From the sequence record OZ035796.1: DNA of 64,000 nucleotides; one strand, written 5' to 3'. This document shows, piece by piece, positions 59,049 to 62,390 of the stretch; position 1 is the first letter of the stretch; every line of letters begins with the position of its first letter. Below the pieces are notes generated by a model that was given only the letters and a program-made list of their open reading frames with translations, did no database searches and had not been told where the DNA came from. Position numbers and translations under genes: made by a program. This DNA is from Felixounavirus NRG857CP1.

Positions 59049-59124
59049 GGAAGTGTAGCAGAATGGTGATGCGGCAGACTTTTAATCTGACAGGCGATGG
59101 GTTCGAATCCCTCCACTTCTACCA
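59049..59124 (+). tRNA. tRNA-Lys (anticodon TTT)
   Basis: Acceptor GGAAGTG/CACTTCT; anticodon loop CTTTTAA; T-loop TTCGAAT; CCA; paralogous to the tRNA at 60758. Confidence 0.6.
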
Positions 59125-59128
59125 ATAT

Positions 59129-59205
59129 GGTTCAGTCGCAGATAAGGTAATGCAGGGGTCTCATAAGCCCTATGAATGTGGGTTCGATTCCCATCTGAAC
59201 CTCCA
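59129..59205 (+). tRNA. tRNA with CAT anticodon (Met/fMet or Ile2)
   Basis: Perfect acceptor GGTTCAG/CTGAACC; anticodon stem with three consecutive G-C pairs and loop CTCATAA; T-loop TTCGATT; CCA. Confidence 0.65.
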
Positions 59206-59207
59206 AT

Positions 59208-59282
59208 TGTGGGTTAGCATAAATGGTAATGCAAACGGCTGATAACCGTTAGAAGAGGGTTCGATACCCTCACCTACAACCA
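59208..59282 (+). tRNA. tRNA-Ile (anticodon GAT)
   Basis: Acceptor TGTGGGT/ACCTACA; anticodon stem AACGG/CCGTT with loop CTGATAA; T-arm GAGGG-TTCGATA-CCCTC; CCA. Confidence 0.65.
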
Positions 59283-59296
59283 ATTTCAATAAAGTT

Positions 59297-59325
59297 GTTG
59301 ACATTAAGATGTGACCACTTTATAG
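59297..59325 (+). promoter_or_regulatory. sigma70-like promoter candidate inside the tRNA cluster
   Basis: TTGACA - 17 nt - TATAGT. Confidence 0.5.
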
Positions 59326-59649
59326 TAACTGAAAATGATTCAGCATATGTATAATTCAAACACCAATACATGAGTGTTAGACGTAACACAATGTGGGGAA
59401 ATTTGTTGTACATGTTCTGAATAGTTTTCGTTGCGTAGCGTCTATTTTGCAAATTTAAAATAAATGCAAACGACAATGTTTTTCTGGCAGTAGCTTGATA
59501 GGCTAAACACCAGTGAGGTCTTCCAATCCCTCATCAAAGAATTTGGCGTACTCGCCCACGGTATGATTAATAAGGTGGGCAACATTCTAAAGGGTATCCC
59601 TTATGGGGCTTGGCTTAAATGCAATGAGTACCCTTTAAAATGTTAATTA

Positions 59650-59731
59650 CGGGGCGTATCTCAGCGGTCTTCTAAACCGCCGTTAACCGAGTAAGTGGAG
59701 TATGCGGGTTCGAGTCCTGCCGCCTCGACCA
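59650..59731 (+). tRNA. tRNA-like gene, atypical (possible Arg, anticodon TCT)
   Basis: Good acceptor (CGGGGCG/CGCCTCG), T-arm GCGGG-TTCGAGT-CCTGC and CCA, plus a hairpin GCGGT-CTTCTAA-ACCGC; D-arm not foldable by hand, so possibly degenerate. Confidence 0.4.
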
Positions 59732-59746
59732 ATTTTGGATGAAATC

Positions 59747-60094
59747 ATGAAAACTTGTATTAGGTGCAAACTTAGCAAGGATGAAAGTGATTTCTACATG
59801 AAAGATGGTAGGAGAACTCATTCATACTGTAAAAAGTGTGTTAATGAGCAAACCATAGAAAGACAAAGAGCACTTAAACTTTCAGCTATTGAGTACAAAG
59901 GTGGGGTTTGTCATGATTGTGGTAAAAGGTATCATCCAGCAGTGTATGACTTCCATCATTTGAATCCTTCAGATAAAGATTTTAACATTGGTCATAGAAA
60001 AAGTCTTAAGTTCTCTCAGGAGCTAAAGGACGAACTTGACAAATGTGTTTTGCTATGTTCAAATTGCCATAGGGTAAGACATGCAAAGTATTAG
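59747..60094 (+). CDS. HNH endonuclease embedded in the tRNA cluster
   Basis: Start at the ATG at 59747 inside ORF 59702-60094; Cys-rich zinc-finger HNH pattern (CIRCK...C..C, FHHLNP...N...H, CSNCH). Confidence 0.65.
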   Translation: MKTCIRCKLSKDESDFYMKDGRRTHSYCKKCVNEQTIERQRALKLSAIEYKGGVCHDCGKRYHPAVYDFHHLNPSDKDFNIGHRKSLKFSQELKDELDKCVLLCSNCHRVRHAKY

Positions 60095-60231
60095 TTAGCA
60101 GATTGCTTAGACGACCTTATCGGGTCTCCGTGTAAGGAGGTGGTCTGTATCTCATGTTTTCCAGAACATGTAAATAATCTGAGAAGGGGCTTTACAGTGT
60201 TGAGATAATACGGTAAGCTTCGAATTATAGT

Positions 60232-60314
60232 ATGGGACGATGTTAAGACTCTAAGGCATGAGCAACGGCCTCCAAAACCGTTTCAAAGGGGTTCAACTCC
60301 TCCGTCCCATGCCA
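60232..60314 (+). tRNA. tRNA, atypical enlarged D region (possible Trp, anticodon CCA)
   Basis: Perfect 7-bp acceptor ATGGGAC/GTCCCAT, T-loop TTCAACT, CCA; candidate anticodon hairpin ACGGC-CTCCAAA-ACCGT; 83 nt. Confidence 0.45.
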
Positions 60315-60327
60315 AAGTCTTATTAGG

Positions 60328-60415
60328 GGTAGGTAGCGGCTAATGGCAGCCAAACAGTCTTGAAAACTGTTGCCACTGTAGAGATACGGTGAGGGTTCGA
60401 CTCCTTTACTTACCG
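60328..60415 (+). tRNA. tRNA-Ser (anticodon TGA), class II
   Basis: Acceptor GGTAGGT/ACTTACC; anticodon stem ACAGT/ACTGT with loop CTTGAAA; ~20-nt variable arm; T-loop TTCGACT. Confidence 0.65.
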
Positions 60416-60570
60416 CCTAATAAGATTTAAAGCCAAGCTTCATTCGGATGTTGCTTTGGTATACCGCGTGTATTGTTGTACGCACTGATAAAGCACCTAG
60501 TAGGTGTCACGGAGAAGAGATAATATCAAGCTCTCCAAAGGTTCTAGTCACCGGATTAAACAAGACTATG

Positions 60571-60593
60571 CAAAGACCTTTTTAGGTCTTTTT
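60571..60593 (+). terminator. hairpin plus T-run (terminator or processing site candidate)
   Basis: AAAGACC-tttttA-GGTCTTT followed by TTTAG. Confidence 0.4.
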
Positions 60594-60672
60594 AGAGGGC
60601 TTCTAAGGTTATTACAGCTTGTTGTGGAACCTTGTTGCTTAGGTTCTTAGAAGTTCTCTAAAAAGATTTAAT

Positions 60673-60915: not shown

Positions 60916-60921
60916 ATTAGT

Positions 60922-60996
60922 GCATCCATAGTTTAAACGGGAAAATTACAGTCTTCCAAACTGAGGTTGAGGGTTCGATTCCCTCTGGATGCTCCA
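60922..60996 (+). tRNA. tRNA-Gly (anticodon TCC)
   Basis: Perfect acceptor GCATCCA/TGGATGC; anticodon loop CTTCCAA; T-arm GAGGG-TTCGATT-CCCTC; CCA. Confidence 0.65.
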
Positions 60997-61003
60997 AATT
61001 AAT

Positions 61004-61079
61004 GCTCCTATCGTATAATTGGCTATTACGGTTGCCTTGTAAGCAACTTATCAGGGTTCGAATCCTTGTGGGAGCACCA
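61004..61079 (+). tRNA. tRNA-Thr (anticodon TGT)
   Basis: Acceptor GCTCCTA/TGGGAGC; anticodon stem GTTGC/GCAAC with loop CTTGTAA; T-loop TTCGAAT; CCA. Confidence 0.65.
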
Positions 61080-61175
61080 ATTCAGAGGTCAAGTGAAAGA
61101 CCGCTTTGAGTCAACTGAAGACCGTAACAAATTCCACGGAGTTGAGTTAGCGGCACAACTTCAGACCTCTTTCAC

Positions 61176-61250
61176 ACTCGCTTAGTTTATATGGTAAAAC
61201 ACCACCCTTACAAGATGAAGAAAAAGGTTCAAGTCCTTTAGTGAGTACCA
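61176..61250 (+). tRNA. tRNA (possible Val, anticodon TAC)
   Basis: Acceptor ACTCGCT/AGTGAGT, D-arm GTTT/AAAC, T-arm AAAGG-TTCAAGT-CCTTT, CCA; anticodon stem only 3 of 5 pairs. Confidence 0.5.
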
Positions 61251-61251
61251 T

Positions 61252-61329
61252 GTTCCAGTATCCCAATTGGCAGAGGATGCAAGCTCAAACCTTGTATTAG
61301 TGACGGTTCGAATCCGTCTTGGAACACCA
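61252..61329 (+). tRNA. tRNA (anticodon CAA, Leu-type, short variable arm)
   Basis: Acceptor GTTCCAG/TTGGAAC; D-stem ATCC/GGAT; anticodon stem GCAAG/CTTGT with loop CTCAAAC; T-arm GACGG-TTCGAAT-CCGTC; CCA. Confidence 0.5.
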
Positions 61330-61334
61330 ATTTT

Positions 61335-61410
61335 GCAGGATTAGTTCAAATGGATAGAGCAACAGTCTACGAAACTGTTAATAGGGGTTCGAATCCCTTA
61401 TCCTGCGCCA
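61335..61410 (+). tRNA. tRNA-Arg (anticodon ACG)
   Basis: Perfect acceptor GCAGGAT/ATCCTGC; anticodon stem ACAGT/ACTGT with loop CTACGAA; T-loop TTCGAAT; CCA. Confidence 0.65.
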
Positions 61411-61428
61411 GATAAGCAAGAGGAATTT

Positions 61429-61671
61429 ATGCAAACATTAATCGTCGTTGAACATGAAAATCCCAATAGTATTGAGTTTGTAAGGGTTCCCACTATAGAT
61501 ACCCACATTTTCTTAAAAGTCGGATGGGAATGCGACCCAATAAAAGTAGAAAGATTTATTGGTCATTGCTTTTGTGGAAGACAACTTAAAAGTGTCAATT
61601 TTGAGACAATGTTACCAGAAAGCTCAGAAACAAGTAATAATGCTTACCTCCTTACGAGGGTTAGACAATGA
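61429..61671 (+). CDS. hypothetical protein within the tRNA cluster
   Basis: 80 aa; AGAGGA Shine-Dalgarno. Confidence 0.45.
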   Translation: MQTLIVVEHENPNSIEFVRVPTIDTHIFLKVGWECDPIKVERFIGHCFCGRQLKSVNFETMLPESSETSNNAYLLTRVRQ

Positions 61672-62225
61672 GATACTTAAAATATGCTTCATGGATTTTC
61701 TTAGCTTTGCTAGAACCACTTGCAGCAATACTAGCAGTTATCTTAGCACCTTTCGTAGTTCCATTCTACAGTGAGAAGAAAGGACATCTACCTTTTGGAT
61801 TCAGATGGATGGAGACCTATGACAACCCAATTGATGGTGATGAAGGTCACGTTAAAAGATGGGCTAATATTAGATGGATTGGTAAACTAGGTGTCTACAT
61901 GCAAAGAGTTGGATGGCTCTGGAGAAACAAAGCTTATAACTTCTCTTACCATGTGTTAGGAAGAGATGTAAAAGATGTTACTAAGTGGAAAGGTAATATC
62001 AACGTAAGTTCTAACCCTGAAGATAATCAGACTGGTTATCTCCTAATGTGGAACAGGAATGCTTGGGGATTATTCGCTTTTATCCCATCAATTAAAATCT
62101 TTGGTAAACAATTTTACTGGAGAATTTATATTGGATGGAAACTAAAAAGCGTTGTCCCAGAAGAAAGAGCATTCTCAAGGGAAAGAGTTATGTTGGCATT
62201 CTTTATTCATCCACTAAGAAAGTAA
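61668..62225 (+). CDS. hypothetical membrane protein within the tRNA cluster
   Basis: 185 aa; N-terminal hydrophobic helix; Trp-rich; GAGGG Shine-Dalgarno; ATGA overlap. Confidence 0.5.
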   Translation: MRYLKYASWIFLALLEPLAAILAVILAPFVVPFYSEKKGHLPFGFRWMETYDNPIDGDEGHVKRWANIRWIGKLGVYMQRVGWLWRNKAYNFSYHVLGRDVKDVTKWKGNINVSSNPEDNQTGYLLMWNRNAWGLFAFIPSIKIFGKQFYWRIYIGWKLKSVVPEERAFSRERVMLAFFIHPLRK

Positions 62226-62233
62226 AGATTTAA

Positions 62234-62309
62234 AGGGGATTAGTTTACAAGGTTAAAACCTCGGTCTTTGAAATCGAAGAAGTTGGTTCAATTCCAACAT
62301 CCCCCGCCA
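62234..62309 (+). tRNA. tRNA-Gln (anticodon TTG)
   Basis: Acceptor with A1-C72 mismatch; D-stem GTTT/AAAC; anticodon stem TCGGT/ATCGA with loop CTTTGAA; T-arm GTTGG-TTCAATT-CCAAC; CCA. Confidence 0.6.
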
Positions 62310-62311
62310 AT

Positions 62312-62390
62312 GCTCCATTACTCCAATTGGCAGAGAGGCCAGACTTAAAATCTGTGTTATGTATCGGTTCGAATCCGATATGGAGTACCA
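62312..62390 (+). tRNA. tRNA (anticodon TAA, Leu-type, short variable arm)
   Basis: Acceptor GCTCCAT/ATGGAGT; anticodon loop CTTAAAA; T-arm ATCGG-TTCGAAT-CCGAT; CCA; same architecture as the tRNA at 61252. Confidence 0.5.

What the first reader, a model, noticed from the sequence alone, without database searches (positions are those of the whole stretch)
59049..62390. Unusual tRNA features: paralogous Lys tRNAs, Leu-type anticodons without long variable arms, and tRNAs with aberrant D regions
The tRNAs at 59049 and 60758 are paralogs (anticodons TTT and CTT) with compensatory acceptor and anticodon-stem changes and a shared non-canonical T-stem. The tRNAs at 61252 (CAA) and 62312 (TAA) have Leu-type anticodons but a 6-7-nt variable region instead of a class II long arm. 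The genes at 59650 and 60232 have good acceptor and T-arms but no conventional D-arm. The anticodon calls are hand folds and may be wrong, but the structural oddities are visible directly.
Basis: partly seen in the sequence, partly recalled or inferred. Interest (0 to 1): 0.4.

Follow-up and report, generated by a model that had tools for sequence, protein, structure and literature searches.

The report
Odd-shaped tRNAs in Felix-O1-like phage

Summary
The window is a Felixounavirus (100% identical to OZ035806.1). All three observations hold. (1) tRNA-Lys(UUU) and tRNA-Lys(CUU) are 82% identical paralogs with compensatory stem changes and a shared T-stem of 3 G-C pairs plus U.U and A.C. (2) Three (not two) tRNA-Leu genes (UAG, CAA, UAA) are 78-79 nt with 4-7-nt variable loops. 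They keep A73 and the E. coli-type Leu D-loop, which fits published data that E. coli LeuRS does not need the long arm. Ser and Tyr tRNAs keep theirs. (3) 60232-60314 is a tRNA-Trp(CCA) with a 10-nt connector before a 3-bp D-stem, with covariation in three of its four stems. 59650-59731 belongs to a phage-specific, unannotated family: 37 distinct sequences, 14 of 20 pairs covarying. It has no D-arm, an invariant 7-nt connector, a UCU (once CCU) anticodon and a near-invariant 23-nt extra arm. It occurs almost exclusively where a canonical tRNA-Arg(UCU) is absent, and AGA is heavily used, so it is most likely the phage's tRNA-Arg(UCU). Charging and decoding are inferred, not shown. Directly upstream lies an unannotated tmRNA-like tag template (ANDNVFLAVA), shared with P1, ViI-like and other phages.

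The parts
59049..59124 (+). tRNA-Lys(UUU), paralog of 60758; T-stem with U.U and A.C
   Evidence: ARAGORN; Rfam tRNA 54.4 bits; 62/76 identical to Lys(CUU)
59298..59326 (+). Sigma-70-type promoter-like site (TTGACA-17-TATAGT) upstream of the tmRNA-like RNA and of 59650
   Evidence: Best match in the region, 11 of 12. An equivalent promoter sits directly upstream of the element in other phages
59423..59580 (+). Conserved tmRNA-like core. Starts with AGUUUUCG. Tag reading frame GCA...GCU at 59466-59495 (ANDNVFLAVA), stop 59496-59498 inside a hairpin. Followed by two pseudoknot-like hairpins
   Evidence: Weak Rfam tmRNA and tmRNA_permuted hits. At least 120 viral contigs carry it. 13 peptide variants. 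Third codon positions vary twice as much as first or second, and all three stop codons are used. Covariation seen by eye
59581..59644 (+). Long hairpin (AACAUUCUAAAGGGUA...UACCCUUUAAAAUGUU) between the tag core and 59650
   Evidence: Read from the sequence. Other phages carry a different long hairpin at this position
59650..59731 (+). D-arm-less tRNA-Arg(UCU)-type gene. Layout: acceptor 7 bp, connector UAUCUCA, anticodon arm (loop CUUCUAA), 23-nt extra arm CGUUAACCGAGUAAGUGGAGUAU, T-arm, A73, CCA
   Evidence: Rfam tRNA 31.7 bits. Family alignment A2: 99.3% of cells paired, 14 of 20 pairs with changes on both sides. RNAalifold gives the same structure, as does the single-sequence MFE
59747..60094 (+). 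HNH homing-endonuclease ORF (115 aa) inserted between the two odd tRNA genes; present in only some relatives
   Evidence: Read. The homologous ORFs are annotated HNH endonuclease in Felix O1 and vB_EcoM_D4. Only 27 of 403 matching records cover at least 80% of 59640-60320
60232..60314 (+). tRNA-Trp(CCA)-type gene. A1:U72, G73, CCA. 10-nt connector GAUGUUAAGA, 3-bp D-stem, anticodon stem with extra 26:44 pair and a conserved C31.A39 mismatch, T-stem with A49.C65
   Evidence: ARAGORN -mt calls Trp(cca). Alignment A3: 6 pairs with changes on both sides, 0 of 500 shuffles as high. The MFE structure is the same
   Evidence: Its anticodon stem is fully replaced by compensatory changes in relatives
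60758..60833 (+). tRNA-Lys(CUU), paralog of 59049
61252..61329 (+). tRNA-Leu(CAA), 78 nt, 6-nt variable loop, 3-bp D-stem, D-loop CAAUUGGCAGA, A73
62312..62390 (+). tRNA-Leu(UAA), 79 nt, 7-nt variable loop, same D-loop, A73

Best explanation
The region is the tRNA gene cluster of a Felix O1-like phage.

(a) Lys(UUU) and Lys(CUU) are duplicated paralogs that together read AAA and AAG.

(b) The three tRNA-Leu genes have lost the class II long variable arm. They keep what E. coli LeuRS is reported to need: A73, a 3-bp D-stem, and a D-loop with A14, A15, G18G19 and A20a plus U48. The host enzyme can therefore charge them.

(c) 60232-60314 is the phage's tRNA-Trp(CCA). It carries the bacterial Trp features (CCA anticodon, G73, A1:U72) and has an 8-nt insertion in the acceptor-to-D connector.

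(d) 59650-59731 is the phage's tRNA-Arg(UCU) in a non-canonical architecture shared by a phage-specific family. It has no D-arm. An invariant 7-nt connector and a nearly invariant 20-28-nt extra arm between the anticodon and T arms presumably rebuild the tRNA core. The extra arm contains a D-loop-like AGUAAnUGGA, which could supply the G18G19 and A20 equivalents. The gene is probably transcribed from the promoter at 59298, cut out by RNase P, charged by host ArgRS through C35, U36 and A/G73, and used to read AGA, a codon that is frequent in the phage and, from general knowledge, rare in the host.

Shown here: the sequences, their structures, covariation, distribution and codon usage. Inferred: processing, aminoacylation, decoding and the tertiary role of the extra arm.
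For: Identity of the phage: 100% to OZ035806.1 and about 96% to Felix O1.

Leu:
- The short loops and the D-loop CAAUUGGCAGA are seen.
- Across 176 phage loci, Leu genes are bimodal: 63 of 75-79 nt and 27 of 82-88 nt. All Ser genes are at least 85 nt and all Tyr genes at least 81 nt.
- The review PMC9976931 states that in E. coli A73, A15-U48, G18G19 and A20a matter, the long arm does not, and variants lacking it are still charged.
- tRNAscan isotype models in the related phage Sf14 still rank Leu first.

Trp-type gene:
- Nine variants show compensatory changes in the D-stem, anticodon stem and T-stem: 6 pairs with changes on both sides, 0 of 500 shuffles as high, and slid controls at 0.
- No other Trp tRNA exists in the 64-kb window.

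Arg-type gene:
- Homologs at 83-90% identity occur in Asteriusvirus, Sugarlandvirus, Mydovirus, Vequintavirus, a Pectobacterium T4-like phage and Kolesnikvirus.
- 37 distinct sequences fit one 82-nt template: 99.3% of cells paired, covariation score 0.783 against 0.214 for shuffles (0 of 500), and at most 0.18 when the partners are slid.
- RNAalifold finds the same fold independently.
- The loop is CUUCUAA in 32 sequences, CUUCUAC in 4 and UUCCUAA (anticodon CCU, also Arg) in 1. The discriminator is G or A in 34 of 37.
- A scan that used only the 5' part recovered 42 members with the standard extra arm and 6 with two related arm types.
- Only 1 hit was found in 185,579 species-representative genomes.
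- Among loci with at least 5 tRNAs: 35 have the family member and no canonical Arg(UCU/CCU), 11 have the canonical gene only, 3 have both and 1 has neither (Fisher p = 1e-7).
- Relatives L093 and Sf14 have a canonical tRNA-Arg(UCU) at the same position.
- AGA makes up 12.8 per 1000 codons in the window's ORFs. The Felix O1 genome paper noted that an AGA tRNA was expected but not found.
Against: - No expression, processing or charging data were available; function rests on comparative evidence alone.
- E. coli ArgRS is known to depend on A20 in the D-loop, which this RNA lacks in the normal place. Bacterial EF-Tu and ribosomes have not been shown to use D-arm-less tRNAs efficiently.
- In this phage and in 6 other family members the acceptor stem has G3:U70. 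Here it comes with G2:C71, G4:C69 and A73, which is the alanine identity set and should provoke mischarging of a true tRNA-Arg.
- The counts of loci are inflated by closely related Felix-like contigs.
- For the Trp-type gene, the promoter-like -10 element abuts position 1, so a transcript started there might lack the first acceptor nucleotides. The C31.A39 mismatch and A49.C65 weaken its helices.
- Single-sequence folding energies are no better than shuffles (z from +0.9 to -1.8).
Confidence: 0.68

Rival explanations
1. 59650-59731 is a tRNA mimic that is not used for decoding. It could be a decoy or inhibitor for a host enzyme that acts on tRNA-Arg(UCU), such as an anticodon nuclease or a modification enzyme. 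Or it could be only an RNase P/CCA processing signal that defines the 3' end of the upstream tmRNA-like RNA.
For: The connector and extra arm stay nearly invariant while all stems drift, which looks like a protein-binding surface. The canonical D-loop with A20, needed by ArgRS, is missing. G3:U70 is tolerated in 7 of 37 members. In this phage the gene directly follows another non-coding RNA under one promoter. Published work links phage tRNAs to evasion of tRNA-targeting defences (PMC10264068).
Against: The loop is a perfect anticodon loop identical to the host tRNA-Arg(UCU) loop. The only anticodon change seen (CCU) stays within Arg. The family is almost mutually exclusive with canonical tRNA-Arg(UCU/CCU), as a functional replacement would be. 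In other phages it sits among ordinary tRNAs with no tmRNA-like RNA in the 400-nt flanks fetched.
Confidence: 0.17
2. 59650-59731 is the alanine-accepting tRNA-like domain of the adjacent tmRNA-like RNA. Together they would form a phage trans-translation system that tags proteins with ANDNVFLAVA.
For: The element is adjacent to the tag template and shares its promoter. In this phage the acceptor stem has G2:C71, G3:U70, G4:C69 and A73. The D-arm is missing, as in tmRNA tRNA-like domains. The tag frame has no start codon and is under coding selection.
Against: G3:U70 is present in only 7 of 37 family members; G:C is commonest. The family keeps an Arg anticodon, which a tmRNA domain does not need. 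It occurs without the tag element in many phages. The tag element occurs without it, for example in P1, RCIP0071 and L093, where a canonical tRNA-Arg follows. RNase P would separate the two RNAs, and no pairing that would hold them together was found.
Confidence: 0.06
3. 59650 and 60232 are decaying tRNA pseudogenes, and the short-arm Leu genes are non-functional relics.
For: ARAGORN's default mode misses both. Rfam scores are low: 31.7 bits, and 23 bits to a different model. GenBank records leave them unannotated or call them tRNA-OTHER.
Against: All helices are kept by compensatory double changes across many lineages. The unpaired segments are near-invariant. The Leu genes are conserved in several genera of phages.
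Confidence: 0.03

Closest known systems
D-arm-less mitochondrial tRNA-Ser(AGY) of animals (and the armless tRNAs of nematodes and mites)
   Same: A decoding-type tRNA with acceptor, anticodon and T arms, in which a short connector replaces the D-arm.
   Different: Here the host is a bacterium with standard EF-Tu and ribosomes. The RNA is not shortened (82 nt), because a conserved 20-28-nt extra arm follows the anticodon arm. The connector and extra arm are nearly invariant rather than eroded. The anticodon is Arg UCU/CCU. The comparison rests on general knowledge and on PMC4013460 and PMC9427863 (titles and abstracts only).
E. coli tRNA-Leu (class II), its engineered variants without the long arm, and animal mitochondrial tRNA-Leu
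   Same: A73, a 3-bp D-stem and the D-loop pattern xAAUUGGxAGA with A14, A15, G18G19 and A20a, plus a U before the T-stem. Published work shows E. coli LeuRS charges variants that lack the long arm (PMC9976931).
   Different: The phage genes are natural class-I-shaped tRNA-Leu that work with a bacterial synthetase. [quoted passage not shown]
Canonical phage tRNA-Arg(UCU), as in Shigella phage Sf14 (Mooglevirus) and Felix-like contig L093
   Same: Same slot in the cluster (after Lys-Met-Ile), the same anticodon loop CUUCUAA, a similar T-loop, and an A/G discriminator.
   Different: The canonical gene has a normal D-arm and a 5-nt variable loop. The window's gene has neither, and its stems share no sequence with the canonical version.
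tmRNA, especially the coding piece of two-piece (permuted) tmRNA (Rfam RF04321)
   Same: For the neighbouring element at 59423-59580: an A-rich run, then GCA AAC GAx opening a 10-codon frame without a start codon, a stop codon inside a hairpin, pseudoknots downstream, and a tag that begins AND and ends in small hydrophobic residues.
   Different: No tRNA-like domain with G3:U70 could be assigned. Scores are 20-31 bits against a gathering score of 47. ARAGORN finds no tmRNA. The tags end in LAVA, LMAA or VAA instead of LAA.

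Membership tests
tRNA (Rfam RF00005): Lys and Leu genes | Cloverleaf with 7-bp acceptor stem, D-arm, 5-bp anticodon stem with 7-nt loop, T-arm; score above the gathering score of 29 | tested here: met
   40-57 bits for the five genes; ARAGORN structures
Class II tRNA (long variable arm): expected for bacterial tRNA-Leu | Variable region of more than 10 nt that forms a stem-loop | tested here: not met
   Variable loops are 4, 6 and 7 nt in the three Leu genes, while Ser and Tyr in the same cluster have long arms. 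Length distribution
tRNA-Leu identity set for E. coli LeuRS | A73; tertiary elements A15-U48, G18G19 and A20a; long arm not required | tested here: met
   A73 is present in all three genes. The D-loop CAAUUGGCAGA in the CAA and UAA genes (AAUUGGUAA in the UAG gene) matches the E. coli pattern GAAUUGGUAGA recalled from memory. A U precedes the T-stem. The rule itself comes from PMC9976931. Charging was not tested
tRNA (Rfam RF00005): 59650-59731 | Score above gathering; all four arms present | tested here: inconclusive
   31.7 bits, just above the gathering score of 29, but the D-arm is scored as deleted and there is a 20-nt insertion. The acceptor, anticodon and T helices are strongly supported by covariation
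tRNA-Arg identity (E. coli ArgRS) | C35, U36 or G36, A/G73, and A20 in the D-loop | tested here: inconclusive
   C35 and U36 are present in all 37 members, and A/G73 in 34 of 37. A20 is absent from its normal place. An invariant GGA in the extra arm is only a candidate substitute (inference)
tRNA-Trp (bacterial): 60232-60314 | CCA anticodon and G73 (with A1:U72 in E. coli); canonical cloverleaf | tested here: inconclusive
   CCA, G73 and A1:U72 (G1.U72 in some relatives) are present. The cloverleaf is kept, but with a 10-nt connector, a 3-bp D-stem and C31.A39. It is below threshold in Rfam. Covariation supports the D, anticodon and T helices; the acceptor pairs vary on one side only
tRNA pseudogene | Loss of pairing and no purifying selection | tested here: not met
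   99.3% (alignment A2) and 94.4% (alignment A3) of cells are paired, with compensatory changes
tmRNA: 59423-59580, with or without 59650 | Tag reading frame that resumes on an Ala codon without a start codon | tested here: met
   GCA-started 10-codon frame. Third-position variability is twice that of first or second positions. Stops are TAA, TGA or TAG. The alternative ATG frame is absent in phage Marshall
tmRNA: 59423-59580, with or without 59650 | tRNA-like domain with acceptor stem carrying G3:U70, a T-arm and CCA, formed with the same RNA or a partner piece | tested here: inconclusive
   No conserved partner was found. The primary transcript seems to start only about 5-8 nt before AGUUUUCG in minimal versions. 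The adjacent 59650 has G3:U70 here, but the family does not conserve it
tmRNA: 59423-59580, with or without 59650 | Detection by curated models (Rfam gathering score, ARAGORN) | tested here: not met
   tmRNA_permuted 20.6-31 bits against a gathering score of 47; tmRNA about 12 bits. ARAGORN -m finds none in 176 loci

The most novel reading that the evidence does not exclude
The promoter at 59298 drives a phage trans-translation module that has not been described. It would consist of a tmRNA-type tag template (ANDNVFLAVA here, ANDDLMMVAA in P1, with related tags in ViI-like, G7C-like and many 40-50-kb phages) that lacks its own tRNA-like domain and works with a separate tRNA-shaped RNA. In this phage that partner could be the adjacent D-arm-less RNA, whose acceptor stem carries the full alanine identity set (G2:C71, G3:U70, G4:C69, A73). 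In that reading the D-arm-less family would serve both as a decoder of AGA and as an acceptor piece.
Probability: 0.1. Interest if true: 0.9.

Novelty: new variant of a known kind. Interest (0 to 1): 0.62.

Why it matters
tRNA shape is among the most conserved features in biology. Textbooks and the 2023 identity review say that tRNA-Leu always has a long arm outside animal mitochondria, and tRNAs without a D-arm are described only from metazoan mitochondria.

This phage, and many others that infect enterobacteria, carries natural exceptions that must work with ordinary bacterial synthetases, EF-Tu and ribosomes. The short-arm Leu genes are a natural confirmation of in vitro LeuRS identity rules.

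The D-arm-less Arg family raises concrete, testable questions:
- How does ArgRS read a tRNA that has no D-loop A20?
- How does the conserved extra arm rebuild the L-shape?
- Does the altered core protect the tRNA from host tRNA-targeting defences?

There is also a practical point. Standard annotation misses these genes, so phage tRNA repertoires are under-counted. Felix O1 was thought to lack tRNAs for Trp and AGA.

Tried and rejected
- **ARAGORN variants.** Lowered thresholds, intron mode and tmRNA mode on the five inter-tRNA gaps gave only an implausible intron call and the mitochondrial-mode Trp call.
- **Alanine identity for 59650.** This was attractive because of G3:U70 and A73. I rejected it as the family's rule because only 7 of 37 members have G:U at 3:70.
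- **A helix between the 5' connector (CUC) and GAG of the extra arm, and other tertiary pairings.** These could not be tested because the residues never vary. The small hairpin YCG/YGG has only one-sided (wobble to Watson-Crick) changes.
- **A tRNA-like domain for the tag RNA.** I tried pairing the 5' GUUUUCG with downstream CGGGAAC (phage RCIP0071), with the 5' strand of 59650, and with upstream hairpins read as a permuted acceptor stem. None of these is conserved between lineages.
- **Prophage attP copy of host ssrA as the source of the tag element.** Rejected: it has its own promoter, occurs in strictly lytic phages and does not resemble the E. coli ssrA sequence as I recall it beyond the tag.
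- **Literature.** Eight searches found no description of short-arm phage tRNA-Leu, D-arm-less phage tRNAs or a P1/Felix tmRNA-like RNA. The P1 genome paper is not held, so prior mention there cannot be excluded. The P1 GenBank record annotates only a 'dicF-like region' just upstream.
- **Pattern scan with the 5' half only.** Most hits were chance matches inside protein-coding genes and were discarded.

Full report
**What the window is.** The 5.7 kb around the finding is 100% identical to Felixounavirus NRG857CP1 (OZ035806.1) and about 95-97% identical to Felix O1 and many E. coli and Salmonella relatives. ARAGORN finds 25 tRNA genes on the + strand between 57953 and 63585. GenBank records of relatives annotate most of them, including three 77-79-nt tRNA-Leu genes, but leave 59650 and 60232 blank. 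The ARAGORN set lacks Trp and Arg(UCU).

**Lys paralogs.**
- Lys(UUU) at 59049-59124 and Lys(CUU) at 60758-60833 score 54.4 and 56.9 bits and are 62/76 identical.
- Their differences in the acceptor and anticodon stems are compensatory.
- Both share the T-stem AUGGG/CCCUC, with only three Watson-Crick pairs plus U.U and A.C.
- From general knowledge, E. coli has no tRNA-Lys(CUU). AAG is used at 34.7 per 1000 codons in the window's ORFs.

**Leu tRNAs without the long arm.**
- All three Leu genes (UAG 60673-60750, CAA 61252-61329, UAA 62312-62390) are 78-79 nt with variable loops of 4, 6 and 7 nt. Tyr (88 nt) and Ser (90 and 93 nt) next to them keep long arms.
- They have A73, a 3-bp D-stem and a D-loop CAAUUGGCAGA (AAUUGGUAA in the UAG gene). 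This is essentially the E. coli tRNA-Leu D-loop pattern (GAAUUGGUAGA, recalled from memory), and a U precedes the T-stem.
- The identity review PMC9976931 states that in E. coli A73, A15-U48, G18G19 and A20a matter, that the long arm does not, and that variants lacking it are still charged. It also states that tRNA-Leu has a long arm everywhere except animal mitochondria.
- The genes are conserved. In relatives the anticodon stem of Leu(UAG) is replaced wholesale by compensatory changes.
- The same short-arm type, with the motif YCCAAUUGGNAGAGG, occurs in Kolesnikvirus, Mydovirus and environmental contigs.
- Over 176 phage loci, Leu genes split into 63 of 75-79 nt and 27 of 82-88 nt. Ser is never shorter than 85 nt and Tyr never shorter than 81 nt.
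- Isotype models applied to the related phage Sf14 still rank Leu first.
- The best reading is that the arm was lost because the host LeuRS does not use it. Charging is inferred, not shown.

**The Trp-type gene at 60232-60314.**
- Only ARAGORN's mitochondrial mode finds it, as Trp(cca).
- Its parts in order: acceptor AUGGGAC/GUCCCAU; a 10-nt connector GAUGUUAAGA; D-stem CUC/GAG with loop UAAGGCAU; an anticodon stem that includes a 26:44 pair and ends in a conserved C31.A39 mismatch; loop CUCCAAA; a 4-nt variable loop; a T-arm with A49.C65; then G73 and CCA.
- The anticodon arm is almost that of E. coli tRNA-Trp, recalled from memory.
- Nine distinct variants from Felixounavirus and Mooglevirus contigs show these changes: CUC/GAG to CAC/GUG, ACGG/CCGU to UAAG/CUUA, 26:44 A-U to G-C, and 50:64 G-C to U-A.
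- That makes 6 pairs changed on both sides, against 1.8 +/- 1.0 in shuffles (0 of 500 as high) and none when the partners are slid.
- The gene is therefore under selection as a folded RNA.
- One caveat: a conserved -10-like TATAGT/AATTAT abuts position 1, so a transcript started there might begin inside the acceptor strand. In the Felix-like contig L093 a more compact Trp gene sits behind the same promoter.

**The gene at 59650-59731.**
- Rfam aligns it to tRNA at 31.7 bits with the D-arm deleted and a 20-nt insertion.
- Its parts: acceptor CGGGGCG/CGCCUCG; connector UAUCUCA; anticodon arm GCGGU-CUUCUAA-ACCGC; 23 nt CGUUAACCGAGUAAGUGGAGUAU; T-arm; A73; CCA.
- BLAST finds the same element at 83-90% identity in unrelated phages: Asteriusvirus jumbo phages, Sugarlandvirus, Mydovirus, Vequintavirus (where one record calls it tRNA-OTHER), a Pectobacterium T4-like phage and Erwinia Kolesnikvirus.
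- Two motif scans of IMG/VR gave 37 distinct sequences that fit one 82-nt template without gaps.
- On that alignment 99.3% of cells pair and 14 of 20 pairs change on both sides. The covariation score is 0.783 against 0.214 +/- 0.015 in shuffles (0 of 500), and at most 0.18 when the partners are slid.
- RNAalifold predicts the same structure, including a 3-bp hairpin in the extra arm.
- The stems share no sequence between lineages, yet the connector and the extra arm are almost invariant.
- This invariance is not just an effect of how members were collected. A scan with only GTATCTCA-N5-CTTCTAA recovered 42 members with the standard arm and 6 with two related arm types of 20 and 28 nt. The remaining hits were chance matches in coding DNA.
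- Only one hit, on a metagenome-assembled contig, appeared in 185,579 species-representative bacterial and archaeal genomes. The family is essentially phage-specific.

**Why 59650 is read as tRNA-Arg.**
- The loop is CUUCUAA in 32 of 37 members, identical to the loop listed for both Sf14 and its host. It is CUUCUAC in 4 and UUCCUAA (anticodon CCU, also Arg) in 1.
- The discriminator is G or A in 34 of 37.
- In loci with at least five tRNAs, 35 have the element and no canonical Arg(UCU/CCU), 11 have the canonical gene only, 3 have both and 1 has neither. One of the three with both pairs a CCU family member with a canonical UCU gene. Fisher p = 1e-7, although related contigs inflate the counts.
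- L093 and Sf14 carry a canonical tRNA-Arg(UCU) in the same slot.
- AGA is 12.8 per 1000 codons here. The Felix O1 genome paper remarked that an AGA tRNA was expected but missing.
- How ArgRS could cope without D-loop A20 is unknown. The extra arm contains AGUAAnUGGA, which resembles a D-loop with G18G19-A20. That resemblance is an inference only.
- A puzzle remains. The window's copy has G2:C71, G3:U70, G4:C69 and A73, the alanine identity set, and G:U occurs at 3:70 in 7 of 37 members.

**Rival readings.**
- Pseudogenes are excluded by the covariation.
- A non-decoding mimic or decoy remains possible. It explains the invariant surfaces, but it does not explain the exclusivity with canonical tRNA-Arg or the Arg-only anticodons.
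- A role as the acceptor part of the neighbouring tmRNA-like RNA is unlikely as a general rule, because each element occurs without the other.

**The neighbouring tmRNA-like RNA.**
- Between the best promoter-like site of the region (59298-59326, 11 of 12) and 59650 lies a conserved core at 59423-59580.
- It reads GCA AAC GAC AAU GUU UUU CUG GCA GUA GCU UGA, which encodes ANDNVFLAVA and a stop.
- The same element was found in at least 120 viral contigs of very different phages, with 13 peptide variants in total. Sequences were read in Klebsiella phage RCIP0071, the ViI-like phages Marshall and selz, and a Gamaleyavirus.
- It is also present in P1 and P7, between Pban with the 'dicF-like region' and trnA, with tag ANDDLMMVAA.
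- It is present in 780 of 5426 E. coli genomes, mostly on 85-115-kb plasmids, and carried no ncRNA annotation in any listed row.
- Third codon positions vary twice as much as first or second (entropy sums 4.28, 4.19 and 8.61), and the stop is TAA, TGA or TAG. The overlapping ATG frame is missing in Marshall.
- The helix around the stop codon and two pseudoknot-like elements covary.
- Rfam gives only sub-threshold hits to tmRNA_permuted (20.6-31 bits; gathering score 47) in five lineages. ARAGORN finds no tmRNA.
- I could not identify a tRNA-like domain for it, so its mechanism is open.

| Feature | Assessment |
|---|---|
| Lys pair | Ordinary |
| Short-arm Leu genes | A natural exception to a textbook rule, with a ready biochemical explanation |
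| Trp-type gene | A lineage-specific structural variant |
| D-arm-less Arg-type gene | Member of a widespread, phage-specific, apparently undescribed tRNA architecture |

None of the literature searches found a prior description, but the library is incomplete.

Noticed in passing
window 59423-59580 (tag frame 59466-59498); also L003, L004-L006, L273/L275 (phage P1): Unannotated tmRNA-like tag template (ANDNVFLAVA here). It has codon-position-dependent variation, all three stop codons, a stop-codon hairpin and covarying pseudoknots. It is shared by Felix O1-like, ViI-like, G7C-like, P1/P7 and many 40-50-kb phages, and by 780 of 5426 E. coli genomes. No tRNA-like domain was found for it.
   Followed up: partly
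window 58800-58880: The order here is: T-arm (GAAGG-UUCGAUU-CCUUC), 3' acceptor strand ACUCGGC, a 4-nt loop, 5' acceptor strand GUCGAGU (7/7 pairs), then a D-arm-like UGGUGUAAUGGUAGCAC. This is a capped or permuted tRNA-like domain inside the 430-nt gap between tRNA-Asp and tRNA-Lys. Rfam gives only a partial tRNA hit (22 bits).
   Followed up: no
window 59747-60094: An HNH homing-endonuclease ORF sits between the two odd tRNA genes. Most relatives lack it: only 27 of 403 matching records cover at least 80% of 59640-60320. Felix O1 has HNH genes at other positions in the cluster.
   Followed up: partly
L077 and others, homologous to window 61252-62390 and 59049-60833: Some related contigs carry hybrid genes: the 5' part of Leu(CAA) fused to the body of Leu(UAA), and Lys genes with the UUU-type acceptor stem and the CUU-type body. 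This suggests deletions or gene conversion by recombination between the paralogs.
   Followed up: no
L003, L007, L008, L014, L027 etc. (flanks of the tag element in 40-50-kb phages): Repeated long hairpin modules with conserved stems (CACAACAGGUAAGAGCAUU ... AGUGCUCUUUCCGUUGUGG) enclose variable inserts of 50-110 nt, some with T-arm-like hairpins. They may be processing sites or embedded tRNA-like units. One locus (L055) has a borderline STnc100 match about 1 kb downstream.
   Followed up: no
window 60200-60231: A conserved promoter-like element (TTGAGA-17-AATTAT/TATAGT) ends directly at position 1 of the Trp-type gene, so the predicted start site would fall inside the acceptor strand. In contig L093 the same promoter is followed by a 6-nt leader and a more compact tRNA-Trp.
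   Followed up: partly
window 59650-59656 with 59721-59728; alignment A2: The D-arm-less Arg-type RNA of this phage has G2:C71, G3:U70, G4:C69 and A73, the alanine identity set. G:U at 3:70 occurs in 7 of 37 family members, more often than at any other acceptor pair.
   Followed up: partly
window 60270-60276 and relatives (alignment A3): The Trp-type gene occurs with two anticodon-loop versions, CUCCAAA and UUCCAAC (positions 32 and 38 changed together). Four Arg-type family members have A38 changed to C. Changes at positions 32 and 38 are the kind reported for evasion of anticodon nucleases.
   Followed up: no
window 59093-59113, 60802-60822, 60287-60303: An A49.C65 mismatch at the base of the T-stem recurs in both Lys genes and in the Trp-type gene, and it is conserved in relatives.
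   Followed up: no
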